From a virus (taxonomy: Duplodnaviria > Caudoviricetes), in the IMG/VR virus record IMGVR_UViG_3300035507_000051, positions 34,311 to 98,310 of that record: a DNA stretch of 64,000 nt; one strand, given 5' to 3'. Numbering within the stretch: position 1 is the stretch's first letter; each line of letters begins with the position of its first letter. Below, one piece after another: positions 2,809-64,000 of this stretch. A program made the position numbers and the translations under genes. The notes under the pieces are model-generated. The model saw only the letters and a list, made by a program, of their open reading frames with translations, did no database searches and was not told the DNA's origin.

Positions 2809-5106
2809 ATGAGAAAAAATGGAATAACAATTGTTAATCCTTGGAATAAAGATGCAATAAACTAGCATTATTATGGAATTACTCCAGATAATGTAAATCA
2901 ATATGATTTGGGTGGTGCTTTGCAATTGGCTTAGACTGGCACTTAGCAACTAGCAGATGGAGTCAAGGAATTAAATAATATAGGAGATAAATCCAAATAG
3001 TTAAATAATTAGATACAAAGTTCTAATATATCAGCAACTCAAGCTTCTAGCACTGCAGATTTATTAGCAGAATACAATGCCTATAACCCTTTAGCTAAAG
3101 TTACTTGGAAAGACTTTACAAATAAAGGAGGTATTGGAAGCACATTAACAGACATGGTAGGTAATGGAGTTTAGGGAGCTATGAGTGGAAGCTCTATGGG
3201 ACCAATTGGAGCAATTGGAGGTGCAGGAATAGGTTTAGCTACTGGATTATTTACTAATCTAGCAGCTAAAGCTAAAGCTAAAAGAGAAGCAAAGGCTGCT
3301 AATATAAAAATAGCAGCAGCTAATATTAACAATTAGAGTATATTAGACAATAAAGCTATAGGTTTAGACAACAGAATGCTCAGACAGGATTTAAATAATT
3401 TTACTGGCTGGGAAGCAGCTTATGGTGGGCCTTTAAATAGAGAATTTGGATTTGGGGGAAATATGCTTACTAATGGGTCTGTTTTTTCTACAGGATTGAC
3501 TTTTATAGATACAGGAGGTACTCATGAACAAAATACTAATGGTGGAGTACCTGCGGGAGTTAATCCACAAGATGGAATCCCTAATTAGGTTGAAGAAGGT
3601 GAGGTTATTTATGATGATTATGTATTTAGTAATAGGCTAAGAGTAGCTAAAGAATTAATGGAAAAATATAAACTAAATCCAGAAAATGGGAAAAATCCAA
3701 CTTATGCATAGGCTATAAGAAAATTATCTAAAGAAATTAGTGAAAGGCCTAATGACCCTATAAGTAAGAATGGATTAGAGGCTATAATTAAAGAATTTGC
3801 CTAGTATCAAGAAGAAAAAAGAGCTAAGTAGTAGCAAAAGAAACAACAGTAGCAACAACAACAATATTAGGATCAAGTATTGCTACAACAAATGCAATAG
3901 GCTTAGATGCAATAGGCATAGGAATAGTAGCAATCCCAATTTGTAAATGGTGGATTAGTTAGAAGATTTGATGATGCTGGCTCTTTAGTAGATCCTACTG
4001 AAGGCATCATATATACTCCTGATGAAGGCAATTTACCTGAATTAACCGTGGTTTATACAAGACCCAACACACCTGCTCCAGTGCAAATTTCTGATAGAGG
4101 TCCAATAAATCCGGATACTCCATCTTAGCCTATAGATACTTTTCTAAATTATATTGAGCCATAGACTCCAATTACACCTCTAGTACCTGCTTCTCCAACT
4201 ATAGATCCAAAAGCAAATGCTTTAGAAGTAATAGCAGAAAGAAAAAGTAATCTAGCAGCAGGAAAATAGTATTTTGTTTCAAAGAGAAATCCCTATAAGG
4301 TTCTTACATCTCCTGTAGAATTAGCAACAAAAACTACTACACCAGAAAAGAAGGGAAAAACTTATTAGGATTTTCTTAGATTTGCTCCTGTAGTTAGTCA
4401 AGCGATTTAGGGATTAACAGATGCTTTTGGTTTTACCAATAGGCCTACTTTTAATTTAGGAAAAAGAATACTAGCTGCTAATAATGCAATAAGAGATGTA
4501 GGTACAGAAGCTGTAGGCACTAAACTGGGATATAGGCCTGTAGATTAGTGGGCTGCTATTAATAATTTAAACGCGCAAGCTGCTGCACAAAGGGCTCTTA
4601 TAAGAAACTCGAATAATAGAGTTGGGGCTGCAGGATCCTTATTAGCTGCTGCATACAATTAGAATAAAACTTTAGGAGAACTATATGCTAATATGGAGAA
4701 TGCTAATTGGAGTAGATTAGCTAGTGTAGCTTAGCATAATACAGGAATAGATCAGTCTAATAGACAGGCATTTGATCAAGCTGCTCAATTCAATGCAAAT
4801 TAGGGAGTAAGAAGGGCTGCTAATATGATTACTGCTGCTTAGGCGGATGATGCTGAAGAAACTGCAGCTTATCAAGCAATAGCTAATAATAGAACTAATT
4901 TAGCTAATACTTTAGGAGCTATAGGTAAAGAAAGACTTGAAAGAGGTATGCTAAAAGCTCTAATTAAATCTGGATATGCAGGAACTCCTAACCAGGCTTT
5001 AATAGCTGCATTAGCTAGATATGGTATTAATGTAGGATAGCTTACTACTGGAGCTAAAAATGGTGGTAAACTTAATAGAAAAAAGAAAAAAGGATTGACT
5101 TATTGA
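2809..5106 (+). CDS. Virion cargo/ejection protein (765 aa, TAG=Gln)
   Basis: Frame +1 from ATG 2809 to TGA 5104-5106 with TAG interruptions. Contains a glycine zipper (GAMSGSSMGPIGAIGGAGIGLATG), the crAss cargo-type motif GGTHEQNTNGGV..Q(TAG)VEEGEVIYDDYVFSNRL, and a poly-Q tract. Confidence 0.75.
3829..3939 (+). repeat. Poly-glutamine coding tract mixing CAA, CAG and TAG
   Basis: TAG TAG CAA AAG AAA CAA CAG TAG CAA CAA CAA CAA TAT TAG ... CAA TAG GCT TAG ATG CAA TAG GCA TAG GAA TAG TAG CAA TCC CAA in frame. Confidence 0.85.
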
Positions 5107-5107
5107 T

Positions 5108-6961
5108 ATGGCAAGGATTATACAAAATAATGCACAGTTTAATCCATTCAGTTTTGATGAAATGCTTAAACCAGTAGCTTTATATGGAGAAGCATACAGA
5201 AGTCAAGAAGATGCTTTAGCTGAACTAGAAAATAAATCAGCTGTATGGGATGGATTATTAGATAAAATTAAAGATGCTAAAACTTACAAAAAAGTAAAGA
5301 AATATATAGATGGTATAAAAGCAGCATCAAGTGATTTATCTACAAATGGTTTATCTGTAGGTACTAGAAAAGCCCTACTAAATTTAAAATCTTAGTATGG
5401 TTAGGAGATTGCTCCTATTGATGTCCTATATAAGAAAAGAGCTGAAATTGAATCTGACCAAAGAAAGATGGAAGCTGCAAATCCAACTATAAGATTCAGA
5501 AGAAAAGCTGCAGAAACTAGTTTAGACGATATGTACAATAATCCTACATTAGATTTTGGTGCTAATTTTTCTGGACAAATGCTGCAGGATGATGTGTATA
5601 AAGCAGTAGCTTCTATCAAAACTGCAATGCTTAGAGGAGATAAATTGCAGAGTATTGGATTACCTTTTTAGTATCAATAGAGGTTAGATAAAGGAGCTAC
5701 TCCAGATGAAGTATTTACTGCAATGTTCCAATAGGCCTAGCAAGGAGATCCTAGCACAGTGAAATTTCTACGTTCTATAGTGTAGAATGAGGTAGCTTCT
5801 TCTGGAGTACTAGACTGGAATGATCCTAGTGCAGTTAATTATGCATATACTTGGGCTAATAAAGGTCTTATGGGTGCTATAGGTGAATCTGAAATGAAAT
5901 ACTTTACTGATCAATACAGTATGCAAGAAGCTTTAGCACAGAATGAGTGGAATAAAAAATAGCAAGAAGCTAATGCTGAAGCACAAAGACTGAATGGTAA
6001 TATACCTCTTAATTTTGATGATTTAGTTTCACCATTAGAGGGAGAAAGAGTGCCTGTAGAAATACGAGATTATGAAAATCTACAAAAATTAGGATATGGT
6101 TATGATCCATCTAAGAATAAAAAAGCTGGCTATGTAAGAATAGATGTGGGACCAGCATCAAGAAACAGAGATGCTGCTGGTGGTGACTACAGAAATCAAA
6201 GTATAGATGTTAACTTTTTCTCTAAGGATGGTTTACTTCTATCTAAAAAAAGCGTAATGAGTTAGACTAAAAATACTTAGTATAAGGAGGCTATTGCTAG
6301 AAAATATGATGAGTTTAAGAAGTGGACTGAAAAACACATTACTCCAGTTAATGGCCATTATCCTATGTCTGCTTATAAAAAGTATTACGATGGTCTATAT
6401 GCTAATAAAGTAGAAGGAAGTAAAATGCTTTCTATGGTACAATTAAGATTAGATAAAGATACAATAACAAATATAATTCTGAGTAATGCTCAAAAGACTG
6501 TAAATGGAGGCATTACAGGAATAATGGAAGTAAAAGATTGGAATTCTGATGGATCTATGGAAACAAAAGGTCGCGTTAAATTAAAAACTTTGCAAAATGA
6601 ACTTTCAAAAGAAGATGTTCAACCTTTGCTATATGTCCCAGGAACTGCAGCTACTAGAGGAGTAATTGTAAAGCTAGGTAAAAAGACATATTTAATTCCA
6701 CAAAATGTACTAGGAAGTATTGGAGCTGAAGCTTTTAATATTGATGTTCCCATGCTACAAACTGCATATCAAACTAAGCAAGATTTAATTAGTAGGTATG
6801 GCGAAGATGCTTATTATAAATCTCCTGAAGGACAAAAGCTAGAAGCCACCATTGATTAGGCGGGAGCTGCTTATGTAAGATCTATTACAAATGCACTAGC
6901 TTTTGAATATAAATTAAATCCTTATCAATTAAATACAACAACTGAAAATTCTTTATAGTAA
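5108..6961 (+). CDS. Putative virion cargo protein (617 aa, TAG=Gln)
   Basis: ORFs 5108, 5468, 6050 and 6365 share frame +2 and end at TAG. The gene ends TAG-TAA at 6956-6961, overlapping the next ATG (TAATG). N-terminus FNPFSFDEMLKPV is typical of crAss cargo genes. Confidence 0.7.
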
Positions 6962-13043: not shown

Positions 13044-16000
13044 TTACTTACTTAAACTTTCATAATATGTTTCCATTTTTTCAGGATGTGCTACCTTTAT
13101 AAAGTTACTTCTCCATGAAGGAACTTCCAATAATGCTTTATATGCAGTACTATGCCCCTTGTATGGCCCACTCTTGATTTCATCCATCCATCTAAATGGA
13201 TTAAGAACTCTTGTTAAATTTACCGTATCTTCAATTACTGAAGTATTTGCTATTGGGCTTTTTAAAATATTAATCATTTCTGTAGGCATTTGAGTACCTA
13301 TAGTCAGAGCTCCTAATTCAGTTCTTTCTCTAAGCATAAGAGCTCTTAGCATTCTTTCTGCCCAACTTCTATCTTTCTTTTTAGATTTATCCATACATAC
13401 ACATAAAATACTAATAGTTAAAAACTATGTTATTTCAGCCAAAGCTCTTTTTATATTAGCTTTTTCATAATCTTCTAGTTGATTCCAATTCCAAAGCAAT
13501 CTTTTTTGACCATCCTCAGTTTCTTGTCTTAAACCTAATAAAAATTTAAATGTAGTTCTGTAGTATCCTTCAAAGTCAGTATCAGCTTCCATACTATGCA
13601 TTTTAGCTCCAAATCTGTATCTAAATTGACTAGGTATCCAATCTCTATACTACATTATAAATCTACCCCACAAATGACGTCTAGCAGCAATAGAGTCTTC
13701 ATCATTATATATACCAAATAGATGCTGATTAACATATCTAATTTTAGCTTCAAATTTAGTTAAATCTTCTTCAGTGAATTCACTACCATCTTCTTTAGTT
13801 ATTCCTTCTTTAAGCACTAATTTATTGCCTAAATCAGGATCATTCTCTTTTATAGGTTTAACTTCTAAAGCATCCCATAGAGATATTGCATTTCCATTAA
13901 CATCCTTTAGTTTATATCTTAAAGACATAGCTATAGCTGTTCTGTTATATAACCAGAAGTCTCCAGCATCTTGCCCTAAAAACTGAATTCTGGGGCCAAA
14001 TAATCTTCCTAGGATAGTTTTATTAATGAAATCCTTATTCTTAATATGCTTTCTAAAATCCTATTTAACATTAAATTTCTGATCAAACAAAGCTAATTTA
14101 CTGTGCATAGTCCTAGAACCTATGTCTCCTACATAAGAAGTTAGAGCAGCAAAGAAATGTTTATCAGCGGATGCTAATTCTCTAGCATTAAACCATTGTC
14201 CTGCAGCTGCTTCTATATTCTACATACCTATACCAGTTAAAGCATTTGCTGCATTTGCTAGTGCATTAAAACCAAGCTATACAGCACTACCTACTTTTAG
14301 CAATAAACCAGCAGCTTTATTTATATCTACTGAAGTATTTTCTGTTACTTTTATTTCCCCGTTATCTACTAAATATTTTTCATATACTTTAGATTCAAAA
14401 AAGTCGTTGAGTAAATTTCCAAAATTACTTTCTTTAGGATCTATAAGACCTTCAGTAGTGTTTGTTCTATCTCCAGCATTGTTACGCCCCACTAATTTTC
14501 TATTACCTTTAGTTTTAGCAATTTTTCTTTTATTCATTACCCAATGTCTTCCAATCTCTAATGGAGTACAAATATCAGACATAGCTGAGTAGTTATAAGC
14601 CATATCAGCATAAGCTATAAGACTTCCTATTACATCATGTGTTAACTGTGAAGTATCTTTACTTTTTACATAATATATAGGTAGCTAAAACACTTCTTCT
14701 GTATCTTGCATACCTACTAATCCATGGTATTGATTGGTATCATCAAAACTTCTAATAAAAGAGGCTTTAGCACCATCTATAATACCCTTAATATTTCCCT
14801 ATTTTATAAGATCTTTAGCTCTTTCTATTGCTGATTTTCTTATTCTAATAGTATTAGTAAGTGTGGTGGTACCTTCAGGTAATAGTAAGTCTAATTGCTC
14901 TTTTAGCTCCATCCATTTATCATAGAACTCTTGCTATATGGTAGTTAAACTAGAATATCTTGAAGGGTATACTTCATGGTTAGGAATCTAAGTTCTTTTT
15001 CCATTAATAACTATGTATTCTGTATTATCCTTTATCCACTTACTTAAAGCTTGAATTTTAGCTTTATATTCCTTACTACCAATCTAAGGATGAGCTCCAT
15101 ACTAATTCTTTAATTCTTGCTCTTTCTATTTATATGCTTTATCATATGCACTTCTATCATAGGAGTAATCTTTCTTATCTATAATAAGTTTGTTAATGTA
15201 TCTTTCATTTCCTTCTTCAAACATAAAATCATAGTTTTTAATGCCTCTCTTTTCATATTCTAAACCTAGAGCAATAATCTACTATGACATATCTATAGTT
15301 TTTAACCTCTGCTGAGTTTTAGCTGCTTTAACAACCTTATCAAAAGACTGCAGTAGTGTGTCTGGATTATCAGCTACACTAGTAAAAAATTTTTGCATAA
15401 AATTCACATCTTTTCCTGCAGTAGCTATCATTTCTTTAGCAGATATAACTTTTAATCCCCCCTTACCATCTTGAATTTTTACAGTATCTCCTACAAATTT
15501 TGTTAAAAATGTAGTAAAAGAATCTAGTGCTTTTTTATAAAATGCGGAATTTAATTCTTGATAAATTGTATTAGTAGTAGACAAAGCATTTAGAATAAAT
15601 TCTTTTGAATTACCTAGGCCATTAGTTGGGTCATGAGCTAATTTTGAGTATGACACATTAGGTCCAATTTCTTCTAGGTCTATTAAATCTTCTAAAAATG
15701 GATTAGCTCCTCTAAATTCTACTCCATCTTTTATTAACTAGTTACCTTCTTTACCATTGTACTTCTCATGCTTAATATTACTTACAGTATATACAGCAGT
15801 TCCAGTATTAGTACCTTTAGGTGCAGGATAATTTACCTTTATAGGAATAATTTTAAGACTTTTAATTTCTATACCATACTTATCTTCTAAAAATTTTTTA
15901 TACAAAGATACCTATCTTGCATATTTATCTTGCTTCTCATCATCAATTTCTCCTCTATGAGTTTTCATATCATAGATGTACCAATTGCCATCTTCATCAT

Positions 16001-18011
16001 ATCCTAATAAGTCTAGAGTGCCTGCTACTCTTACTGTATGAACATGCCCTTTGCCATCAGTAGTATCTACAGTACCTTCAATAGTTACATCTCTAGCAAT
16101 AAGAGTAATTCCATCTCCCTCTATGTCATTTTTTAATTTATTAAGCTAGTATACAAATGCATTTAGGTGTTTTCTATCTACATTAGGATATACTACATCA
16201 AGCTCTTCTCCTTCAACTTTCCAAGTATCGCTATCAGAATCATAAGTAATTCTTCCTTGCATAAAATCTCTTACTAATTCATCTATTCCTGTACCTATAT
16301 TAGTTGATGGTGTTACATAAGGATTTTTGGGATCAAAATTTTTACCTTCAAAATAGGCCTAAATTACTTGAGTAGTTCTCATATATTTAGCACCAGTTTT
16401 GATGTTTATATAATAAGTACCATCGTCAGATAATTTAATTTCTTCCGAGTGCTAAACTATTATATCTGCAATCTATTTTGCAGTTAGGTTTTTAGTATCT
16501 ACTGTAGTTGTGGATTCTAAAGTTCTATAATCTTTTAGTACATCTTCAGAATCTTCTATTCTCATAAATTTTTGGCTTAGAATTACATCGTCTGACATAA
16601 ATTCTTCACCTAAAACATCATATAATTCATTAATTGTAACTCCCCAATTTTTTAAAGCCAAAAGAGCATTCTTAAGAGTAGAAAATTTATCAGATAGTTC
16701 AAGTTCATCTAAGTGCTCTAAAGAGGTAAATAACTATTTGACATCAGCTTGAGCTACATCTAGTAAATCAGAAATTGCTAACATAGTTTCTTCTTTTGAT
16801 AAAGCCACATTAATGTCACTTGTTAGCTAAATTGCCCTCTTTTTTATGTCATATCTCTCTTTTCCATCTTTAGTGTTTTCCCCAAGAGCAGACTACTTAT
16901 GCATTCTAGCAGCAGCATCTCTCACTACTTTAGCTTGGTCTTTAGCTTTTCCTACTAGTGCAAAAAATCTAGCTTCTCTTTTTGCTCTTTCTATATCTTC
17001 TTTTTTAATCTCTTGCTTTTCTGTAATAATATCTTTAGCCAGCACAGATAAGCCTCTTTTAATACTATCTATATTGTCCTAGTAATATGCTGGATTTAAT
17101 CCCTTAAATAAATTTTTAATATAATTTTTAGCTCTAGTAAATATGGGAACTTTAGTATTCTAAGTGTTCATCTAGTTTCTTATCTCAGAATTAAGTTCAT
17201 TCTAAAGCATATGGCCTACAGCTTCTTCAGCAATTAGGGCAGTATCTCCCTAATAAACTTCATAGTAATCATCATACTTATCTCCAAGAATTTCTCTAGC
17301 AGCCTATTCATTTTTTAGATAATTATATGCTCTTTGTACTACGGGCCTTTCTATATATATTCTAGTTAGCAAATGTGCAAATTCTTCAGAAAATGCTTCT
17401 ACACCTTCCATATTATCAGCCAATCTTATTAAGCTAGTAAATTCATTAGCTACAGATTTAGCATGATTAAAATTAGTTTCACCTACAATTCCAGCAGCAG
17501 TTTCTATAGAAGATAAATGAGTTACAGTAACTCCAACTTTACCTAGTATCTTAGATATAGTCTCATTTAACTGATGAATGGCTTTCTAACTATTTGCAAT
17601 TTCTTGATTAGCTTCAGTGTTAGGAACTAATCTTATTGTTAAATTTTTATCCTCGGTATAATCTACTATAGCTATATAGTCATTTTCTTTTTTCTCATTC
17701 ATTTCCATTGCCTCATTTACAAGAATTCCTACATTCTCAATGGTATTCGGCAATTGTTTCATAGTTTTATTAGCCTACTCAAGTATAGTAGATTCTCCTA
17801 TAGCTTTTCTTACAATAGGCAACTTCATTAAACTATTATAAGTAGGGACTCCCTCACTATCTAAAGTGAGGGAATCCTTATAATCGTTTATGAAAGCATC
17901 TGTTACTATTTTATTAAAGATTCTAGATGCAGTAGCATAACCAAAGTTCTTTTTTAACTATTGAAATGTACTTGCACCTCTCTTTGGAATAAATACACAA
18001 GATTTTCCCAT
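13044..18011 (-). CDS. Giant cargo protein with PD-(D/E)xK nuclease and degenerate zincin domains (1655 aa, TAG=Gln)
   Basis: ATG 18011 (MGKSCVFIP); fragments 16661, 15656, 14603, 13928 and 13394 are in the same frame; TAA at 13044. Motifs VAGTLDLLGYDEDGNWYIYDMKT..KYAR(TAG)VSLY and FSEEFAHLL..EEAVG. Confidence 0.75.
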
Positions 18012-18028: not shown

Positions 18029-21000
18029 TTATCTTTTTGGTGGACATAATTTAGTATCTTTATCTTCAGTATCTGGATATTCATCAAGATCTTCTTTTTT
18101 CTCATTAGGAGTATCATCTTCATCTATATCTAGATCTTCAGAATCAGGAGTTTCATCAAAATCTTCTTCTATATTTAATGAATTCTATGCTTCTATAGCT
18201 TCTAAAGCTTCAGCATCTTCTTCTAGTGAATCAGGATCTTCATCTTGAGGATCTTTTAATAGGTCAGGATCACCTAAGTCTGGTTCTGAATCTTCAGGAA
18301 TATTTTCAATTTCTCTCTCATCTTCTAGATCTTTAGGTGCAGTTTCATCAATATCTCCATCTTCTTGAGGTACTCCTCTTTCAAGATCATCACCTTCAGT
18401 TTCTGTGGGATCTTCAAGATCTCCTTCATCTTCTGGAGACTCTTTTTTAGATTTGTCTGAATCTTTATCTTTTTTAACTTCCTTAATGTCACCAAAAGTT
18501 CCTCTTTTAGCTAATTCAGTCCAGTCAATTTCATTATAATTTTTATTCATATTGTAATACGGAATATTAGTAGTATTATAATTACATTTCTCATAAATAC
18601 CCTTATCACTTACTTTTATCCAAAGAGAATTATTTGCTCTTACAAAAGTAGGTAAAACATCAAGCCCTTCAACACTTCCTTGAACTGCTTCTTTGCCATC
18701 TGTAGTCAAATTTAGTTTACCATCTGCTATTACATATAATTTTTGTTTACTATTCAAAAATGTAGTATACTGTGGATGATTAAGTAAGAATTGACACACA
18801 AAATTATAAATATTAAAATCACCATTTTGTAATTTGGCATTACCTTCCTTTAATGAGTCTACAAATCCAGGCAACTGATTAAAGAAAGCTGTAGTAAAGA
18901 AAGTGCCAAAGTTATTGTGACTAAATGCAAGTCCACTGTTGTAATAGCTGTACATAAAAAGATCTCTAATTAAATCTACAATTTCAGGATCTGGAGATTG
19001 CAATAAACTCTCAATATCTTTAACATAGTGCATTCTGTCTTTATTGCTAATTTTACCAACATTTTGCATGAATATACCAATGTTTTCACTTTGAGTAATC
19101 TTTCTAAGTAAGGTATATTTATCTTTTAATTCAGGGTGTGCTTTCATAAAAGAGTAATATTTCATAGGAAAATCATGAATGTAGTAATTTCTTTTATAAA
19201 TCATACTATCTTCAGTATTTTCACCAGAATCTCCAAATTCAGAATAATAGGACAATAAAGCTTGAGTTAATTCATTGCATATTGTTCTAAGAACCAAAGT
19301 GTCTCCTTTACCAGTATATCTATAATGAGTTTGATTTCTAAGTACTTTAATTACATTATGACTAGAATCATTTGTAGTTAGTGCATTTAAATTAGGAAAA
19401 AATCTAGCACTTAAAGTAAGTGCACTTTTAATACCTAAAGTATAGGCAGCTTGTAGTCTGGGTATAGGAGCTTTCAGTATTCTATATCTAAGAGCCTCCT
19501 TACTCATTAAAGTAGCATCCAAAGTTATATCTACAATCTTATCAAGACCTTGTACAGGACTATCTTCTTCTTTAGCATCTGCCATAAAGTCCTGTGCTCC
19601 AAAATACTGTCGAATAACCTCTGGCAAACTAACTTCCAATGCTCCGTTAGTAGAATCAGATCTAGAAACTTTAGATACACTATTCAAAGATTTAGAAAGT
19701 GCTATAATATTTTGAAAAAATACAGCATATTGTGCAGCAAATTGCTGATTATGAGATTTTTTCATTTCCTCTTCAAAAGCTTCTTTATCAGTTCTCATTA
19801 AAGAAACTAGTTCTGCTAATTTGTTAGTGCTAATATTATAACTAGATGCAGCGTATACATTGCCATTATTTAATTTTAAATCTTCAAGTACAAGTTTACT
19901 ATATTCATAAAAATCTTCACTAGTATTTATTAAACCAATAGTTTGAGGATCTAATCCCATTCTAGCAAGTAAACCTATTCTAGTTGCAGTTTTTATATTA
20001 GCACCTATATCACCTAAACAAGGATCTTTACCATTATCTGGAGATGCTGCTTGGAATTCAGCAAGAATTCTACCAATTCTTTCTCCTGATATTATAGAGT
20101 TTTGAAGATCCAAATTTTTAAGTACTATTCCATCAATTTGTACTTGAAATGCAGGATGTATTCCTATATTAGCAAATTGCAATTTATAGTGATTAGATGA
20201 ATTTACTGCAAACATACCAATGAGTGCATTTCCATCCATAAGATTTCTTTGCAAATCAATAGCATCAATTACATCTAGAGGATCTACAGGACTGGCATAT
20301 TTATCATAGAATTCTTCTAGGAATTTAGTATTATCACCTTTCTCATCTGCTCCTATGGAATTTAATGTTGTAAACAAACCATATTTATCAATATCATCTG
20401 CATATTGTTTTTTAAATTCTTTTAAAGCTTTAGGGTTATGCATAATTCTTTGCTGTCTTGAAGCTTGTCTAACTCTATCAAAATTACCGGGTTGCATCAT
20501 TAGTTTAGAACCAGGTCTGCTTGTTAATGTATTCCAAATAACATCAATAAGCATGTTATTTCTAGTTGAAATTCTTTCATTTCTTTTTAATGCTTCCTGT
20601 TTAGATATTTCATCAGTAGTTAAATCATTACCTTCATCATCTACAATCTTAGGTTTAAGAGTATCATACTTAGGAATATCATATTTTATGGATTTACTAG
20701 CGCCTCTAACTGCTAAGAATTCACTAAAGTCTGGATTAAACTTTTCTAGTTTCCTAATATCTTCATCTGTATATCCTTGCTTTCTGTTTCTATAAAGTAT
20801 TCTCCAAAGGATATTGATTTCAGATTTAGTGAGACTAGTCTCTGCTTCTTCCTCTGATAATGCAGCTTCTTGTTCTTTCATGTAAGTTTTAAAGTCTTTA
20901 CCAATCCATCTTTCAAATTCACTAAACAGCGCAGGTTTATAAGTAAATCTTTTAAATTCTCTTACCATTAAGAATAGTTTATCAATGTCAAAGTCAGTAC

Positions 21001-24000
21001 CTGACATTGTAATAATATCAGAAGGTAGCATAATAGAGGTACCAGCAACTACAGGCATAAATCCTACAATTCTAATAGGCATTATGGAGTATTTATCCTC
21101 AGTAGGAATTCTATATCCAATTACCTGAAGTAGCTTTTCAGCTTCTTTCTCACCAAAAGCAGCTTCCATTTTCTTAAAATTAATAGTTTGATATCCTTCT
21201 GGTGTAGTTTCTAAGAAATCTGCATACATTTCTTTACAATATGCTGGAAGATAAGCTTCAATGTACTTTACACCATCAGACATATCTTTACCATTATTAT
21301 AAACAACATGCAGATTATCAGATAATCCAAAATTAGATACAAGCACTGAATTTCCTCCTTTTATTTTCTGCCTTTGTATTGCATTTTTGAATGTAGAAAA
21401 TATAAGAGCTTCAATTTTATTGCTTAAGTTAGGGCTATTAAATGGAAGCATAAATCCAGTACCTTCTTTATTGATTTGTAAAGCTTGTCTTACATCTTCT
21501 CCATATTGTGGATTTCCTTCCATCTTGGTAAATAGCATTTTTTGTAATGAATGAATATCTTGGAATTCATTACTTACTGCACTATAAGCATCGATAAGAT
21601 TATCAACTATAAGAGTATTATAAAACTGAACAGCTTCTTCTCTATTTAAAGTGGTAGGCTTACCATTTAATTCTAAAGTCATTGTAAAGTTTTCAGGAAG
21701 GTCAGCCATAATAATATTCTTAAGCTGAGATCCAAAAATAGCTTCTGCATCAATAAGATGATCATCAGAAGGCTGCACAATCATGTAAGAACTTAATGGA
21801 AATTCTTTAAACATGATACTATTTTCACCCCCTTTAGCTGCATATTGCTGCTCTAAGGATGCAACTACTTCTTCTTTAGTCTTGTAAGCATATTCATTTT
21901 TCTTTTCATTAAAATATTCTTGAGATATTTTTCCATTTTCTAATGCTTGAACTAATTTTCCTATATATTCTTTGTAAGTCTTAATATTTGTATCTCCTAA
22001 AATTTCTACTTTTCCTTCTTTTAAAGCCTTTTCAAATCTACTCTTGTTATAGTTTAAATCAAAAGGTGAATTGAATCCTACTTTAACTACACTATGAAAG
22101 TGTACTGCATCAACTCCATGATCTTCCATAAACTGCTGTAGGCCGAGCAACTTAGGGGATTTATTTAATGCAGTATTTAACATAGAAAATAGTGCAGATA
22201 GCATGTATTCTGAGTTTTTGTGCTGTGTAGTTACTTTTTCCATTCTACCATTAGTAGATACAGCTTCAAAACCATAGAAAAATGGTTTAATTGGATTCCA
22301 CAATGCAAGAAAATCAGCAGCGGTTATAGTTCCTCTTTTGATATTTCTATAAGCATCTTCCATGCTATCAGTCCACTTACCACCTCTAGCTATAAAGATT
22401 TTTCTAAAAGAATCTAAAGATCTAAAAGACTGACCATCAGTACTACAGATTTTTTTGTAAGCTTCCAAAGTACCTCTAATCATACTTTTATCAAACTCAG
22501 TTATATCATCAGAATCCATAAGAAGATTCTTTAAAGATTCAAAAGAATTAGATATGACATCTTCATCTTCTAAATACATAACCTTTTCTATAAGATCTCC
22601 AATGATATTTCCTTGTTCATCTGTTTCTTTAGCAAACAATCTTTCTCCGCAAGCATATGCTTGCTTATTTCTCTTAATATAATCTTGATAACTTTTGTAA
22701 TAAGCTAAGTCACCTCCAATTAATTGTTGAATACTAGCTTGTGCAAGTGCATTATTGTAATAGTACTCAGTTAAATATTCATCAACTTTTTGAAGTTTAT
22801 ATTCAGTCTCTTTCTCATTGACTTCCTCATTATTTTCTTCATCTTGCTCTTCAGTTAGATTTTCTTCAGTTGAGAATAGCTCTTCATTCTTAGCAGCTTG
22901 TTGTGCCATTCTGCCATAGATTTCTAATTTATCTTCAGAAGATAATTTTTCTAGCATTCTAGCAGTTTGCTCTTCTAAATGGTCTTGTAGTATTTTCTTG
23001 AGCTCTTTGTCTCTTCTTTCTTTAAATTCAGTAGGAGACTCATTGCCTTGCATCTTACAAGCTTCTAAAACTATTTCTGCTTTAGTTTTACCATCTACAG
23101 TTTCAGAATTTAACCAAGGAAAATATGTAAATGTGGCTCCTTTACTTCTTTTGTCATTGTAGTTTTCAATTTCTACTTGATTTTCTTTTTTATTCTTGAC
23201 ATCATTAATTCTATCAACTTCTTGAAGTAGATTCTTTACCAGTCTATTAAGAATTTCTCCTTTGTAATTATTTCCAGTAAATCTTCTACCTTTTAGCATT
23301 ACTATAGCATCAACATCAGAGAAAGAAGGGCATGCATAATATCCATAATGATTACCATAAGTGTCATCATTAGCAGCCATATACGCATGGAATCTGCCAA
23401 CCAATTGCATCTTAGCATCTACATTTTGTACACTATTTTTATCCTCACTTCCCATAAAGCTCAGCATATTTACATAAGCAAAGCTTTTTCTAAATGCATA
23501 GTCATTAGTTGAGTCATCCCAATCTTCTAGCCATGAATTTGCCCATCCTATAGGTTCTCCTTTTGCATTTCTTTCTCTAAAGAAGTCAAAATTACCATAG
23601 TTTTTTGCAATCCATTCATTAGCATATTCTAAGTTATCAGTATTTTTTACAATATCTACTAAATCTGAAATAAAATCAGGAGCAGTATAAGTAGCTCTAG
23701 TAACTCCATTATGTCTAAAAGTCATAGTTACATATCCTTCAGAGGCTAAAGTAAGAGCTCCAGCCATAGCTAAATAAGCTCCCTGGAAATCAGCAAGAAG
23801 GTTACTGCCTTTACCGTATGTTACATTTCCTGTTTGATTTACAATGATACTAATGCAGTTTAATATAGTGACTAATTTTTTTATTTGATCATTAGATATA
23901 AGTGTAGCAATATCATCAAGCCCTTTTACTTCTTCTAGGGATTCTTCATCTATATTAGCAAAATCACCAAACAATGAATCTAAATTCATACTGTTAGTAT

Positions 24001-26470
24001 CTACACCTACATCATTAAGTAACCTTTCTAGACTTAATCTACCGAACTTTTTATCAAAGTGGTCATCTAAGCCCATAAGTAGATCCATTACTTTTTTAAT
24101 TTCTGCTACAGTAGCTGTGCCATTAAGGTAAGAATTTAATCTATTTATACACCACCCAAAAGGTTGTCTATTATAAAGTTTAAAATGAATTCTTTTTCTT
24201 CTTTGTGCTGCAGTTTCATTTGCAGGTATTAAAGTCTTATCATCTTCAGCATACGCGGCATTAAACCATTGGTCTAGTTTTGCTAAATGTCTTAAATCAG
24301 CCTGGCCTGTAGCATCATATATAGAATCAATTCCTAATACTAATTTACCTTCATAGTTTGCTTTAACATTAGCTAGCAAATCTGCACTAGAGGTACCTCT
24401 ATTTAAATATTTTAGTAAACCTCTTTCACTAATCATAGCACTTGGTACTTGAGCTCTTCTCATAGTAGAATAAAACTCACTTCTAGTATTTGGATCCCAA
24501 GCTTGAGGATTCTCTGGATTATAAACTAGAATATCCCTAAGATCGTATAACCAAGGATATTTTTCTATAGTTTTATCCAAAGTTTCAACAAACTGGTCTT
24601 CATTTTTCATAGAAGAAAATTCATCAAGCAGAATTCTATATGCAGTTAAAGCATCCATTCTAACTTTACCTCCAAGATCATCAAACACATAATGCATAGG
24701 ATTTTTATAATCTCTTTTAAAAAGAGAACCTAAAAGAGTTTTTATGTTAATAGATAAAGTTTTTGCTGGATCTAGTAGTTTATACTTAACCATATACCCT
24801 TCCCTATTAGCATTAGGCTGATCCTCTCCATTATTTTCTGTATTTTCGTCTTCAGAGGCAATAACAGGCACTGTATCAAAGCTTAATTTAAGATTTTCGT
24901 TAAATTGAATCTCCCAAGCAGCCTCTTGACACAAAGCTACATATACATCAGGTTGCATCATTTGACTATAAGCTTCTACTAAGTGCTGTGCTCTAACTTT
25001 AGCTGCCTCTTTACCTCTTTTTGTCCACTTTATGATTTCACCATCTGCTTCATCAGTAAAAACTTGTACATATACTTTTTTTACTCCATCAGTATAGTCA
25101 TTTCTACATTGTATTTCTTGAATAAAATCAGCACCTTCTTCAGTCTCTGGACTCATTAAAGTTTTTACTAATCTATTCATACCTTCTTGAGTTTTGCAAT
25201 CTTCAACAGTATCAATAAATCTTTTTTGAATTCTATTAAAAATAGCTTCTCCTAAAGGTTTTCCTTCATACTTAAATGCACCTAAAGCGTAAACCCTTTG
25301 TGCTGCTTTATCTCCTCTGGTTAATCCCCTATAATGAGCTTCTTCTACTGCATTTCTATCTTTTAAATTAGTATAATACTCTCTAAGATCCTCTAGCTCA
25401 TAATCAAGTTCTCTAGAGAAAGCTGAACTAATGTAGTGCTCTCTAGCTAATCTTTGCTCAATGTCAGGAAATACTTTAGAAAGTAGAGAGAAATCTTCAG
25501 TGTCTATAACTATTGGATTTAAATTAGGCCTTTTTGCATTTAAACTATCCAGTAGTTCTTTCTGCTTAGCTTCAGCCTTTTTTATAGCTGCTTCTTTTCT
25601 GGCTATAGTTTTAACGTTTTTAGCTCTTTTATTTAACTTTTGGATTTTAATATCTACTCCTCCATCTTTATTTGGGGAATACTGAGCTTGTATGCCCAAT
25701 TGTTTATCTAGCATATCTAACAAGGCATCTGCAAATCTTTGTGGAAGATGCACATTTGGATCTGTAATAATTTCAGGAAATTGAATTTTAGTATATTTAT
25801 TATTAAGCAAAAGCTGTTGTATTCTTGCAATAGCTCTTTTATTTGCTTCTATAAATATTTCTAAATCTTCATCAGTATCTTCAAAATTATCAACCTCCTG
25901 CTTAAAAGTACCATTTACATTCTGATGATTTTTACTTAATACAAGACCAATTACATTCTTATTTAGATTTTTATTGCTATCAGCTATAAGAAATAGTCCA
26001 TATCTTTTATCATTAGTAGATAATGTAGTACCATCTTTTACCTTAATAGTATCGCCAAGCTTTTCACCTGTAACTGCATTATCCGCTTGTAAACTGTAAC
26101 CAGTTACAAATATAGTGTTAGGTGAAGTTCTTGGAGATCCTTTACTAGCTGTTCCTATACTAAATGTAGCATCTCCTAATTTGGTATTTTCTAAAGCTGC
26201 TTTAACTTCTGCCTTTGCTACTCTTGCTTTTGATATAGCTGAATTAATTAGATGTAAATCACCTTGTCTTGCTTTTTTCATAATGGCTTCTTGTGTTAGG
26301 TTGGTATCTGTCATTATACTAGTTATAACTGCCAATACTTCTTCAGAAGTAAGTCCTTTAGTTTCTGTTCTAGCCTATACAGCACCTAGAACTTTTCTCC
26401 TAAAGGCTAACTATTCGTTAATTTCCTTTGTAGTATTTTTATTTACTACTGCACATTTTTTACTATTCAT
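18029..26470 (-). CDS. Virion-encapsidated single-chain DNA-dependent RNA polymerase (2813 aa with TAG read-through)
   Basis: GYRIPTEDKYS and SGTDFDIDKLF (DFDID at 20981-20995) are catalytic motifs of crAss-like RNAP. The 2716-aa ORF extends in frame to ATG 26470 through TAGs at 26413 and 26377, and to TAA 18029 through a TAG at 18187. Confidence 0.9.
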
Positions 26471-26500: not shown

Positions 26501-26537
26501 TACTGCAAAGTTAAGAATTTTTATTAATATAAACAAG
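26501..26537 (-). promoter_or_regulatory. Bacteroidota sigma-A-type promoter for the RNAP gene
   Basis: Minus strand CTTG, 20-nt spacer, TAACTTTGCAGTA (26513-26501); the same 13-mer occurs at 62999-63011 on +. Confidence 0.7.
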
Positions 26538-26599
26538 CTTATAACAGTAAAAATTTATAAAGCAAATTAAAACTGTGAGTATTGTATTAGCAAATGAAT

Positions 26600-26647
26600 A
26601 AAAAAAAATATACCAACAAGAAGATAATATTTCTCCTTGTTGGTATT
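26600..26647 (-). terminator. Terminator ending the early/replication arm
   Basis: ATACCAACAAG...CTTGTTGGTAT inverted repeat followed on the minus strand by a T9 tract. Confidence 0.75.
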
Positions 26648-33679: not shown

Positions 33680-34216
33680 TTATCTTGTGCCAGTACTACC
33701 AAAACCATTTCTATTGTCATTGCTCATAATAGATACTTCTTCAAGTTTAATACCTGAGCAGAGTAGCCACTTAAGTTTTTGCCAGAATGTAGCTTTTTGA
33801 GAAGGCTGAATTCTAAATTGACATATTCTATCATTAGATTGAATAAGTGCATCTCTAATAGCTATTACATTAAATTTCCATTCATCTTGCTCTCCACAAT
33901 AGCTATTATCAATTATGCCTGAACAAGCTTTAATTACACCAAACTTAGTAGTAAGACAACTCCTACCTGTAAGTACAGCTTCAAATCCATTAGGTAATTC
34001 CATAGCTACACCAAGAGGAATAAGTGCAGATTGGAATTTTACATCTCTATGTCTGCAAATATGACCATCTTTTATTTCCTTCTTTAATACATCAGCTTGA
34101 GGTGCCTTAAGCTGTACTGTAATTCTAGATCTAAGATCTACCCAATCTCCTTTGTCAATAACTTTAGGGAAATCTATTCTATCATCAAATCTTTTAATTC
34201 TAATCTTCAGTTTCAT
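33680..34216 (-). CDS. dut: dUTPase (trimeric)
   Basis: GDWVDL, GRS, GIIDNSYCG, DRICQ and RNGFGSTG motifs. Confidence 0.92.
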   Translation of the reverse strand: MKLKIRIKRFDDRIDFPKVIDKGDWVDLRSRITVQLKAPQADVLKKEIKDGHICRHRDVKFQSALIPLGVAMELPNGFEAVLTGRSCLTTKFGVIKACSGIIDNSYCGEQDEWKFNVIAIRDALIQSNDRICQFRIQPSQKATFWQKLKWLLCSGIKLEEVSIMSNDNRNGFGSTGTR

Positions 34217-52523: not shown

Positions 52524-52924
52524 TTTTCTATTTTCTCTACGTAGTTTGTAATAAAATCAGTGGGATTAAAGTCATCATCTATTGATGCTATAAGCAGTTC
52601 ATCAAGGGCCTCATCTAAATCTAATTTAGGTAGAGTGCTTGTTATTACTGCTTTTTTAACTTTATTAATGGCTTCATCAGTTGGTGTAAATTCTGATAAA
52701 ATGATATTAAGAGGTTTAGCTAGAGCTTCTAATTGAATCTTCATAGCTTTATCTGCCTCTTTCCTAGCATCTCTTTCTTTATATAGCTGTATAATCTTTT
52801 GTACAGTTTCTGAAGGAATGTAATTTTTTAATAGTTCTTCAGTTTTACTTTTTCTATAGGCATCCACTTTCCTGCCTATCATACTGATGATAGCTTTTGC
52901 TTGAGATTTGTTTAATTTTACCAT
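52520..52924 (-). CDS. Hypothetical protein
   Basis: 134-aa helical ORF. Confidence 0.65.
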   Translation of the reverse strand: MVKLNKSQAKAIISMIGRKVDAYRKSKTEELLKNYIPSETVQKIIQLYKERDARKEADKAMKIQLEALAKPLNIILSEFTPTDEAINKVKKAVITSTLPKLDLDEALDELLIASIDDDFNPTDFITNYVEKIEK

Positions 52925-56759: not shown

Positions 56760-56767
56760 AATTACAA

Positions 56768-57373
56768 CTATTTATAATTATTGTGTTGAGTATATATAGC
56801 ATCAAATATTTCCTTAGCAAAATATTTGCTCATATGTTGTGCTACCTCTTTTGATTTACAGCACAATAATCCCATAGTAGCATCAACATAGCCATAGGTG
56901 CAGCCGAAAGCACTGATACCCCTACCACAGGAACAATAATAATTGCCACCAACTAAGTAGTAAGTAGTACCTTCAATTTCAATTTCACCACAGAGTTCCC
57001 AGTTGTTGCGTTTTGCTGTATTCCTGGCACTATTGTAGTCATTATAGAACCTAATCCAAGGGTAATACACTTCACCACGAACTAATGAAGGTTTATAGTC
57101 TTGGTTTAATGCTTGTCTAATGATGTCAAGTTTGTAGAGAGCTGTAAGATGGTTTTCTATACTAAGATTAAACTCACCAATTGAAAAGAATGAATTGGGA
57201 CTAATTCCTAGAGATGTACAAGCATCTTCAAAGGTTTTGATTCTTTTCCAGTCCTCTGTTTTGAGCTCCTGTTCACTATAGGCTTGTAATGCTACCTCTT
57301 TGAGGTCTGCACTACCACTGTTATACCACTCTTTAGCCTTCTCAAGAGTCAGTGAAATGTGTCTTGTTTCCAT
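56768..57373 (-). CDS. Hypothetical phage protein
   Basis: 201-aa ORF with IKTFEDAC..LG motif. Confidence 0.7.
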   Translation of the reverse strand: METRHISLTLEKAKEWYNSGSADLKEVALQAYSEQELKTEDWKRIKTFEDACTSLGISPNSFFSIGEFNLSIENHLTALYKLDIIRQALNQDYKPSLVRGEVYYPWIRFYNDYNSARNTAKRNNWELCGEIEIEGTTYYLVGGNYYCSCGRGISAFGCTYGYVDATMGLLCCKSKEVAQHMSKYFAKEIFDAIYTQHNNYK

Positions 57374-60678: not shown

Positions 60679-60704
60679 ATAGATATAGTAACACCCTAAA
60701 ATTA

Positions 60705-61094
60705 CTATTCTTCTACAATCTGCCCTTTAGTGTCAAATTCTTTGTACAGGCGGATTTTGCCTGAAAAGAAATCGCACTCTACCAGAATATCTGACTCCTT
60801 AGCAGAGTACCAAGTTGCAGTACCTGCATCAGCTACTCTAATCATGAATTTAGCAGAAGGAGTTTCTGCATTAATAGGTGTATGTCGATCTTGAATTGCA
60901 TCTAGATCTTTGCACATATTGATGTTGTATCTGCCAAGTAGTATGTAGTAGCCTAGCTCATGTAAGGCAAGAGATAGTATGCTTGAAAGCTTTTGTATAG
61001 AGTTAGCAAAATCTACTCTTATTTCAGCAAACACCTTGCCTCCATTGTAAGTTTCACTATAGGTAAGTAAATGTTCAGGTCTAAGTCTGTTCAT
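60705..61094 (-). CDS. Hypothetical early protein
   Basis: 129-aa ORF ending TAG-TAA. Confidence 0.6.
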   Translation of the reverse strand: MNRLRPEHLLTYSETYNGGKVFAEIRVDFANSIQKLSSILSLALHELGYYILLGRYNINMCKDLDAIQDRHTPINAETPSAKFMIRVADAGTATWYSAKESDILVECDFFSGKIRLYKEFDTKGQIVEE

Positions 61095-63327: not shown

Positions 63328-64000
63328 ATGTGGAAAGATTTATCAATGTCTGAGAAGGCTAGGTATATTAAGTTAGGTGTTCAAGGTGGTATAAAAGATA
63401 TTGGTACTATCTAGGACACCTATAATAATTATATATAGGGACAGTATGCCTAGTGGAAGTAGAAATTAGGTAATTATTGGGGCTAGGATTTAGACTAGGA
63501 TGACTATGATTACCAGAAGTATTATATGGATAACCCTAGAAGAGCAGAAGATTAGTTAAATGCCATCTTAGGGGGATCTAAATAGCATTTTCCTGATGGT
63601 GGTAAGAGTGGGTCTTATAAGAAAATAAGCCATCCTACTTATCCTGATTTAGGGGAAAAGAGCTGGAGTAATAATGACACTGTTTTTCATTTATCTGATA
63701 GGTAGTTGGAAGATAGTGATCGGGTATTAGATTATTTAGGTGCTGATTTAGATTATAACAATGGAGGTACTAAAGCAGTATATAATGGGGGTTATGTGTT
63801 ACCAGAGTTAACTGTAACTCCTAGGGAATCCTATACTAACATGAAACCTAATCCATATAATACAGGATATGTGTATAGTGATAGGGAGTTTGCTAATGGG
63901 GGTAAAGTGCATAGGTTTGATTTAGGTGGTAATTCAGATCCTATCTATGGCCCATATCAATTAAATGAAGTAATTAAAGTAGGTAATAGCAATACTCCTA
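63328..64000 (+). CDS. Late (probably virion cargo) protein, 3' partial, TAG=Gln
   Basis: ATG 63328 MWKDLSMSEKARYIKLGV..; frame +1 broken by TAGs; HFPD..YK..HPT, LPELTV and FANGG..FDLGG motifs. Confidence 0.7.

What the first reader, a model, noticed from the sequence alone, without database searches (positions are those of the whole stretch)
18029..26470. Virion RNAP gene is TAG-free except at both ends: possible genetic-code-switched isoforms
Seen: neighbouring late genes give no ORF-track fragment longer than 164 aa. The RNAP gene instead runs 2729 codons (26374-18188) with many CAA/CAG Gln and no TAG. Its only TAGs are codons 20 and 32 (26413, 26377) and one at 18187, 52 codons before the TAA. 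In the standard code an internal start (TTG 26335, or ATG 26314 with A at -3) gives a roughly 2710-aa enzyme with all catalytic motifs, stopping at 18187. Only under TAG=Gln are the N-terminal MNSKKC extension and the acidic C-terminal ..KLCPPKR tail added. Inference: recoding switches between a cytoplasmic early RNAP and a Cys-tagged form destined for packaging. Alternatively the N-terminal TAGs are a lock and the body was recently exchanged with a standard-code relative.
Basis: partly seen in the sequence, partly recalled or inferred. Interest (0 to 1): 0.85.

Follow-up and report, generated by a model that had tools for sequence, protein, structure and literature searches.

The report
Split-coded virion RNA polymerase gene
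In this gut crAss-like phage and ten relatives, the giant virion RNA polymerase gene uses the reassigned codon TAG (glutamine) only in its two flexible ends and never in its 2,400-codon folded body, so the phage's genetic-code switch most likely decides when, and with which ends, the enzyme is made.

Summary
The ORF at 26470-18029 (-) is a gp66-type virion RNA polymerase of 2813 aa. Its only in-frame TAGs are codons 20, 32 and 2762.

Ten relatives (43-86% aa identity) show the same ends-only pattern at mostly different positions. Pooled TAG/Gln is 22/49 in the N leader, 3/936 in the body and 23/67 in the C tail. Late neighbours run at 22-62%.

Both ends are real coding sequence. One Cys near each terminus is invariant in 28 homologues. 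AlphaFold models show the TAG-permitting zones as a helical leader (1-94) and a disordered acidic tail, both outside the folded body.

Body exchange with a standard-code phage is not supported. A sister clade (L172, L173) has TAG all through its polymerase, so the constraint is lineage-specific.

The gene has a host-type promoter, like the suppressor tRNA and the late operons. It is therefore not an early gene.

Best reading (0.45): the body is translated while TAG still terminates. Tail-less, and probably leader-less, enzyme comes first; the full-length form with Cys at both ends follows the switch. No product was observed.

Earlier scan notes on other crAss-like genomes had reported the terminal cysteines, but not this codon pattern.

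The parts
26610..26646 (-). Intrinsic terminator (15-bp stem, then T9) that closes the TAG-free early/replication operon just upstream of the polymerase gene
   Evidence: fold -20.3 kcal/mol, z = -6.7. An equivalent hairpin plus T run is present in all 11 genomes.
26506..26553 (-). Promoter region. A conserved 21-nt block (26553-26533, unique in the genome) ends in the -33 TTG. After 20 nt comes the -7 element TAACTTTG (26513-26506), 43 nt before ATG1. This is the Bacteroidetes host-sigma type.
   Evidence: TAnnTTTG lies 43-52 nt before ATG1 in all 11 genomes. The same promoter type precedes the suppressor tRNA, the tRNA arrays, and the portal, capsid and late operons.
18029..26470 (-). Full-length virion RNA polymerase ORF, 2813 aa, readable only with TAG=Gln (P0001)
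   Evidence: A profile of 28 homologues hits phi14:2 gp66 (PDB 6VR4) at E = 1.4e-24.
26189..26470 (-). N-terminal leader, residues 1-94. It has a disordered tip with invariant Cys6 (26455-26453), four helices and a flexible linker. It holds TAG codons 20 (26413-26411) and 32 (26377-26375).
   Evidence: In the clade, TAG/Gln in this zone is 22/49.
26279..26335 (-). Candidate internal (re)initiation codons after the last N-terminal TAG: TTG 26335 (codon 46), ATG 26314 (codon 53) and ATG 26281 (codon 64)
   Evidence: This is inference only. In eight relatives a conserved ATG85 follows every N-terminal TAG and sits in a peak of synonymous-site conservation.
18455..26206 (-). TAG-free body, codons 89-2672, containing all folded domains. 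These include the DUF7831-like alpha/beta domain and the catalytic DFDID (20995-20981).
   Evidence: 0 TAG in 106 Gln codons here, and 3/936 over 11 genomes, all three in L089 before codon 265. In six close relatives, 39 of 50 all-Gln columns vary CAA/CAG and none ever holds TAG.
18032..18454 (-). C-terminal tail, codons 2673-2813. It is acidic and disordered, with one helix that spans TAG codon 2762 (18187-18185), the conserved end motif D-x-x-K-[LMVI]-C, and invariant Cys2809 (18046-18044). The TAA stop is at 18031-18029.
   Evidence: In the clade, TAG/Gln in this zone is 23/67.
13044..18011 (-). Downstream 1655-aa PD-(D/E)XK protein, probably co-transcribed. It starts 17 nt after the polymerase stop, begins MGKSC, and has 32 TAG in 67 Gln codons. 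It serves as the internal control for the late-gene TAG rate.

Best explanation
The polymerase gene is split-coded. Its folded body (about codons 89-2672) is kept free of TAG by purifying selection, as early genes are. Its two appendages are a helical N-leader with a Cys at the tip and a disordered acidic C-tail ending in a Cys motif. Both appendages use TAG=Gln at the late-gene rate.

Selection of this kind exists only if ribosomes read the body while host release factor still stops at TAG. The mRNA comes from a host-type promoter, the same kind that drives the phage's own suppressor tRNA(CUA). Translation therefore begins before suppression is complete.

In that phase only enzyme ending at TAG 2762 (tail-less) can be finished. 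Chains begun at ATG 26470 abort at codon 20 or 32. Any body made then must come from (re)initiation at a later start codon (TTG 26335, ATG 26314 or ATG 26281).

Once the suppressor dominates, the same mRNA yields the 2813-aa form with both Cys-bearing ends. I infer that this is the form fitted for incorporation into the virion with the other giant cargo proteins.

Shown: the codon pattern, its conservation, the selection, the reality of both ends, the promoter and terminator, and the suppressor tRNA.
Inferred: the timing, the internal start, the existence of two products and the role of the ends.
For: - Ends-only TAG occurs in 11 genomes with 25 distinct TAG columns. None lies between residues 264 and 2672.
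- TAG turns over fast in the ends of six close relatives (6 of 6 all-Gln columns). It is never seen in 50 body columns that are saturated for CAA/CAG change; Fisher p = 3e-8.
- Avoidance is specific to the coding frame.
- N-zone TAGs lower the yield from ATG1 as much as a body TAG would, yet they are tolerated. The cost of a body TAG is therefore something else (argument).
- The ends are conserved, with invariant C6 and C2809. They coincide with appendages outside the fold.
- Early genes that end in TAG have a back-up stop 0-13 codons later. The polymerase has 51 codons here and up to 124 in relatives.
- Host-type promoters precede both the polymerase gene and the suppressor tRNA.
- On a rooted tree the ends-only state is most simply ancestral and old.
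- Synonymous-site conservation peaks at ATG1 and again around the conserved ATG85.
Against: - No product, start site or timing was observed.
- There is no conserved internal promoter.
- The candidate internal starts are not conserved across the clade. L089 carries TAGs up to codon 264, and L088 has no N-terminal TAG.
- The sister clade L172/L173 manages with a fully recoded polymerase, so a pre-switch body is not a general need.
- TAG frequencies in the ends equal the neutral late-gene rate, so nothing shows that the end TAGs are positively selected.
- The peak of synonymous-site conservation near ATG85 is modest and lies in an A-rich Lys-codon run.
Confidence: 0.45

Rival explanations
1. Gate only, with no internal-start isoform. 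The polymerase is made solely from ATG 26470. The few N-terminal TAGs abort translation cheaply until suppressor tRNA is available. The low TAG count lets the enzyme appear earlier than the TAG-rich cargo, tail and lysis proteins, so TAG load acts as a graded timer. Body TAGs are purged because long truncated polymerase fragments are harmful. Tail-less by-products are harmless, so tail TAGs drift neutrally.
For: - There is a single conserved promoter, and synonymous-site conservation is strongest at ATG1.
- N-terminal TAG positions thin out with distance (7 to 88, then 147, 229 and 264 in L089) rather than ending at one fixed start.
- TAG load varies by gene class among the late genes: the capsid protein and its upstream neighbour have none.
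- TAG frequency in the ends is neutral-like.
Against: - It needs a harm from truncation that is specific to the polymerase. The co-transcribed 1655-aa and the 2009-aa cargo proteins carry 32 and 53 evenly spread TAGs.
- L172 and L173 tolerate 58-85 TAGs in the same enzyme.
- It must assume that loss of the conserved C-terminal Cys motif does no harm.
Confidence: 0.35
2. Historical accident: the body was recently acquired from, or is repeatedly homogenised with, a standard-code relative, while the ends stayed resident.
For: The body has the codon character of the neighbouring TAG-free block.
Against: - The pattern is shared by lineages only 43-52% identical, with lineage-specific end TAGs.
- The body is saturated for CAA/CAG change yet has no TAG.
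- Identities of the polymerase and the downstream gene are concordant in every pair.
- No close standard-code donor exists among 170 loci.
Confidence: 0.03
3. Annotation artefact: the true gene is the table-11 ORF (26335 or 26314 to 18185), and the flanking open stretches are non-coding.
For: Database gene callers produced exactly this truncated protein (P0002, 2709 aa).
Against: - Both extensions align with homologues over their whole length.
- M1, C6 and C2809 are invariant in 28 sequences.
- TAG columns align with CAA/CAG in relatives.
- A conserved promoter lies 43-52 nt before ATG1.
Confidence: 0.01

Closest known systems
TAG-to-Gln (code 15) recoding of late genes in crAss-like phages (Ivanova 2014; Yutin 2021, PMC7886860; Borges 2021, 10.1101/2021.08.26.457843; Peters 2022, PMC9523058)
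   Same: A phage-encoded suppressor tRNA(CUA), a TAG-free replication block, TAG-rich structural genes, and the idea that recoding times late expression.
   Different: There the unit of coding is the gene or gene block. Here the border between the two code domains runs inside one ORF, twice, and coincides with the edges of the folded protein. I found no mention of this in the papers I read.
'Dual-coded' genes and code-dependent 'isoforms' of Pfennig et al. (Mgcod, 10.1101/2022.06.29.495998)
   Same: [quoted passage not shown]
   Different: Their isoforms differ by small extensions (stops under 30 nt apart) that they regard as functionally irrelevant. Here the code-dependent parts are 45-52 codons at the start and 51 at the end (up to 124 in relatives), and each carries an invariant Cys.
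Virion RNA polymerase gp66 of Cellulophaga phage phi14:2 (PDB 6VR4) and the polymerase-associated cargo proteins gp47/gp49/gp50 of crAss001 (PMC10172136)
   Same: Homologous enzyme with the DFDID catalytic motif. It sits beside giant cargo genes, and the gene is driven by a host-type promoter (middle class in phi14:2).
   Different: phi14:2 and crAss001 use the standard code, so no code-dependent ends arise. Packaging of this protein is inferred from homology only.
Programmed stop-codon read-through that yields a minor extended virion protein (Q-beta A1; retroviral Gag-Pol) - recalled from general knowledge, not tested
   Same: One ORF, a conditional stop, and a longer form needed in the particle.
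   Different: Those use constant low-level leakage by host tRNAs. Here read-through would be switched on in time by a dedicated phage tRNA, and it also acts at the N-terminus.

Membership tests
crAss-like virion RNA polymerase (phi14:2 gp66 family, two-barrel RNAP) | DxDxD metal-binding motif (DFDID) | tested here: met
   GTDFDIDK lies at residues 1824-1831. Residues D1826-D1830 are invariant in 28 homologues.
crAss-like virion RNA polymerase (phi14:2 gp66 family, two-barrel RNAP) | Sequence homology to the solved gp66 enzyme | tested here: met
   The profile of A1 against PDB hits 6VR4 at E = 1.4e-24, with matched stretches in the same order and the motif region included. A single-sequence search found nothing.
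crAss-like virion RNA polymerase (phi14:2 gp66 family, two-barrel RNAP) | Position in the transcription/cargo block beside giant proteins, after the replication module | tested here: met
crAss-like virion RNA polymerase (phi14:2 gp66 family, two-barrel RNAP) | Protein present in virions and injected | not testable with these tools
   Peters 2022 detected the homologue of another code-15 crAss-like phage in particle-enriched samples, with 2 peptides. There is nothing for this phage.
Code-15 (TAG=Gln) late-gene recoding system | Phage-encoded suppressor tRNA with anticodon CUA | tested here: met
   Genome 6121-6193 (+), outside the window. It has its own TTTG-N20-TACCTTTG promoter.
Code-15 (TAG=Gln) late-gene recoding system | In-frame TAGs in late genes that align with Gln codons in homologues | tested here: met
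   One search gives the per-gene counts. In one search, 13 of 25 TAG columns align with CAA/CAG.
Code-15 (TAG=Gln) late-gene recoding system | TAG-free early/replication block | tested here: met
   TAG-terminated early genes have back-up stops within 13 codons.
Dual-coded gene sensu Mgcod | The two code readings give near-identical proteins (ends within about 30 nt) | tested here: not met
   The readings differ by 135-156 nt at the 5' end and 156 nt at the 3' end.
Programmed read-through isoform pair | Both the short and the long product are made | not testable with these tools
   No expression data were available.

The most novel reading that the evidence does not exclude
The genetic-code switch is used as a protein-isoform switch. 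One mRNA first gives a free core polymerase without leader, tail or terminal cysteines, which works inside the infected cell. After the suppressor tRNA takes over, the same mRNA gives a full-length enzyme whose Cys-bearing ends commit it to the cargo chain and the virion. A sister clade has given up the first product.
Probability: 0.3. Interest if true: 0.85.

Novelty: new variant of a known kind. Interest (0 to 1): 0.72.

Why it matters
Recoding in gut phages is thought to time late genes, but the evidence so far is gene-by-gene correlation. Here selection has drawn the code border inside a single ORF. It has held that border through divergence to 43% identity and relaxed it in one sister clade.

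This works as a natural experiment. It shows that the phage's messages are translated while TAG still terminates, and that one protein is needed, or tolerated, without its ends.

It gives direct, cheap tests using peptides across Q20, Q32 and Q2762 and start-site mapping. It names a contrast, ends-only versus fully recoded sisters, that could reveal what sets the timing of the switch.

It also warns annotators: both code-11 and code-15 gene calls of this enzyme exist in the databases, as P0002 and its truncated relatives.

Tried and rejected
- Megablast of the gene against GenBank phages found nothing. A single-protein scan of IMG/VR found nothing.
- Pfam, PHROGs and a PDB phmmer search with the single sequence found nothing. 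Only the 28-sequence profile reached gp66.
- My first survey flagged many 'late-recoded genomes with a TAG-free polymerase'. Inspection showed that the flag came from spurious out-of-frame ORFs and that these loci use the standard code. I withdrew that claim.
- About ten standard-code loci show an in-frame TAG junction between the polymerase and the next ORF. I judged this compatible with chance and did not pursue it.
- I searched for an internal promoter (TAnnTTTG) in the first 400 nt and found none conserved.
- I considered whether TAG is kept out of the body because decoding disturbs folding. I rejected this because folded late proteins (portal, terminase) carry many TAGs.
- I considered waste of translation as the cost of body TAGs. 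I rejected this because equally long neighbours tolerate 32-53 TAGs.
- The Peters 2022 supplements hold only 2 polymerase peptides from another phage and none at the ends.
- Not available: sequencing-run search, and whole records behind the ENA/Logan loci. I therefore could not compare the place of the suppressor tRNA between ends-only and fully recoded genomes.
Full report
**What the window is.** The window is bases 34311-98310 of a single 98,310-bp contig with about 31% G+C. Its ends repeat the same roughly 90 bases, so the genome is probably complete and circular or terminally redundant.

Read with TAG as a sense codon it has the layout of a crAss-like phage:
- a minus-strand replication block (window about 26657-55000) without in-frame TAG;
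- then the polymerase gene;
- then a 1655-aa PD-(D/E)XK protein;
- and a plus-strand block with terminase, portal and capsid genes, in which TAG makes up 30-80% of glutamine codons in most genes.

A tRNA with anticodon CUA lies at genome 6121-6193, outside the window.

**The observation.** The ORF 26470-18029 (-) has 2813 codons, with TAG only at codons 20, 32 and 2762. The table-11 ORF runs from TTG 26335 to 18185.

The protein is a virion-type RNA polymerase. It carries the motif GTDFDIDK, and a profile of 28 homologues matches the solved phi14:2 gp66 enzyme (6VR4) at E = 1.4e-24.

TAG/(TAG+CAA+CAG) is 0.03, against 0.48 in the probably co-transcribed downstream gene. The deficit is confined to the coding frame. 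Other long late genes carry TAG evenly from start to end.

**Both ends are real.** Full-length homologues begin M-G-x-x-C and end D-x-x-K-[LMVI]-C. In a 28-sequence alignment at 36-52% identity, M1, C6 and C2809 are invariant. The reading that takes the table-11 ORF as the whole gene is therefore wrong. Database gene calls of this protein and of several relatives are cut at both ends for exactly this reason.

**Relatives.** I fetched the DNA of twelve relatives with the same gene order. Ten of them, 43-86% identical in protein, repeat the pattern:

| Genome | N-terminal TAG codons | C-terminal TAG codons | ORF length |
|---|---|---|---|
| L001 | 7, 14 | 2661, 2705 | 2728 |
| L002 | 7, 68 | 2663, 2666 | 2732 |
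| L082 | 7, 14 | 2683 | 2746 |
| L083 | 15, 59 | 2718 | 2832 |
| L084 | 7, 14, 32, 58 | 2676, 2697, 2735 | 2743 |
| L085 | 7, 59 | 2688, 2720, 2728, 2734 | 2757 |
| L086 | 7, 14 | 2661, 2699, 2702 | 2727 |
| L087 | 14, 79 | 2605, 2686 | 2708 |
| L088 | none | 2661 | 2785 |
| L089 | 58, 86, 147, 229, 264 | 2734, 2746, 2753 | 2782 |

In a codon alignment there are 25 distinct TAG columns, and 13 of them align with CAA or CAG in other genomes. None lies between window residues 264 and 2672. Pooled TAG/Gln is 22/49 in the N zone, 3/936 in the body and 23/67 in the C zone. The ends thus run at the late-gene rate, 22-62% in the downstream gene.

**Selection, not lack of time.** Among six close relatives (71-86% identity), all 6 end-zone columns that are Gln in every genome carry TAG in at least one genome, and 5 of these are polymorphic. 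Of the 50 such body columns, 39 vary between CAA and CAG and none carries TAG; Fisher p = 3e-8. Identities of the polymerase and of the downstream gene are concordant in every pair, and no close standard-code donor exists among 170 loci. Body exchange is therefore not supported.

**Anatomy.** AlphaFold models built on the 11-genome alignments show the following:
- Residues 1-10 are disordered and include Cys6.
- Residues 11-94 form four helices, joined by a low-confidence linker to a well-predicted alpha/beta domain at 100-278, which matches DUF7831 in 9 of 11 members.
- At the other end, the last folded domain stops at the invariant Arg-Gly (2656-2657).
- About 70 disordered acidic residues follow, then one helix that spans codon 2762, then the Cys tip.

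The TAG-permitting zones are therefore exactly the two appendages outside the folded body.

**Transcription context.** A strong intrinsic terminator follows the last early gene (26646-26610). A Bacteroidetes-type promoter (TTG, 20 nt, TAACTTTG) then lies 43 nt before ATG 26470. The same arrangement occurs in all 11 genomes.

The same promoter type directly precedes the suppressor tRNA, the tRNA arrays, and the portal, capsid and late operons. It is absent from the intergenic regions of the early block. This matches phi14:2, where injected gp66 transcribes early genes, the host polymerase transcribes middle and late genes, and the polymerase gene itself is of the middle class (10.1101/2020.03.07.982082).

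So the gene is not early. Its mRNA includes ATG1, and I found no conserved internal promoter. The downstream gene starts 9-25 nt after the polymerase stop in all genomes, with M-G-x-x-C.

**The exception.** Two syntenic sister phages, L172 and L173 (45% and 43% identity), have TAG-free early genes but 85 and 58 TAGs spread through the polymerase. On a tree rooted with seven more distant homologues, the window's lineage branches first. The remainder then splits into this fully recoded clade and the other ten ends-only genomes. The ends-only state is thus most simply ancestral and was lost once (quick IQ-TREE search, with the node placing the window outside at 89% SH-aLRT). More distant recoded crAss-like phages also have TAG throughout the enzyme (L029, L080, L129). 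The constraint is therefore real but lineage-specific.

**Reasoning to a mechanism.** A TAG anywhere lowers the full-length yield from ATG1 equally. N-zone TAGs are tolerated at the neutral rate, so loss of yield is not what is selected against in the body. Two possibilities remain:
- (a) A product whose translation does not pass the N-zone TAGs and ends at the first tail TAG. This would be a core isoform from internal (re)initiation.
- (b) Harm done specifically by long truncated polymerase fragments.

Both require that the message is translated while TAG still terminates. Both also imply that tail-less enzyme is made and tolerated.

Points in favour of (a):
- The co-transcribed neighbour and the fully recoded sister enzymes tolerate many TAGs.
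- In several genomes the last N-zone TAG is followed within 4-17 codons by a conserved ATG.
- Synonymous-site conservation peaks at ATG1 and again near ATG85.

Points in favour of (b):
- There is a single promoter.
- No internal start is conserved across the clade.
- L089 carries TAGs up to codon 264.

I put (a) at 0.45 and (b) at 0.35. No product was observed.

**What is known.** Late-gene recoding and its proposed timing role are published (PMC7886860; 10.1101/2021.08.26.457843; PMC9523058). So is the notion of dual-coded genes with small code-dependent 'isoforms' (10.1101/2022.06.29.495998). In the papers I read I found no description of a code border inside an ORF or of the ends-only pattern of the polymerase.

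Earlier notes of this scan on other crAss-like genomes proposed that the terminal cysteines of the giant cargo proteins tether them end to end. Here I confirmed only that the two cysteines are invariant and that the next gene begins MGKSC. The polymerase is not otherwise free of cysteine; it has 12-17 in all. If the tether idea holds, it would explain why the ends are needed only late.

Noticed in passing
window 18011-17997 (start of the 1655-aa gene) and 12990 (end of the 2009-aa gene): The downstream cargo protein begins MGKSC, the same N-terminal motif as the polymerase family (M-G-x-x-C), in all 11 genomes. The convergent 2009-aa protein ends ...L-Q(TAG)-C-M. Earlier scan notes propose an end-to-end cysteine tether.
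   Followed up: partly
genome 6077-6193 (outside the window; locus L170): The suppressor tRNA(CUA) has its own host-type promoter (TTTG, 20 nt, TACCTTTG) ending 13 nt before the tRNA, separate from the promoter of the main tRNA array at 5095.
   Followed up: partly
genome 22563-25092 and 28680-31818 (loci L171:2563-5092 and L171:8680-11818): The major capsid protein, the 378-aa acidic gene before it and three other structural genes have no TAG at all inside the otherwise TAG-rich late block. TAG load therefore differs by gene within the late class.
   Followed up: partly
window 34194-34202, 52845-52856, 56762-56770, 60702-60707: Early-block genes that stop at TAG have a second stop (TAA/TGA) 0-13 codons downstream, so the code switch lengthens them only trivially.
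   Followed up: yes
window 26553-26533: A 21-nt block (TTTTTACTGTTATAAGCTTGT) upstream of the polymerase promoter is unique in the genome and nearly identical in nine relatives. It could be an operator or an extended -33 element specific to this operon.
   Followed up: partly
loci L172:10001-18769 and L173:10001-18460: A sister clade with the same gene order and TAG-free early genes has TAG at 45-59% of the polymerase's Gln codons. This is a natural contrast to the ends-only clade.
   Followed up: partly
loci L037, L045, L046, L058-L061, L063, L071, L112: In standard-code relatives the polymerase ORF is followed in frame, across a single TAG and no other stop, by the next ORF of about 1300 aa. 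The number seen is about what chance would give.
   Followed up: no
locus L083:18322-18336: The downstream cargo gene of L083 has TAG as its second codon (M-Q(TAG)-K-A-C) where the other genomes have Gly.
   Followed up: no
window 63875-64000 and genome 1-90: The contig's two ends repeat the same sequence. The giant first late gene (window 63328 onward) therefore continues into genome 34-5046, and the genome is probably complete.
   Followed up: no
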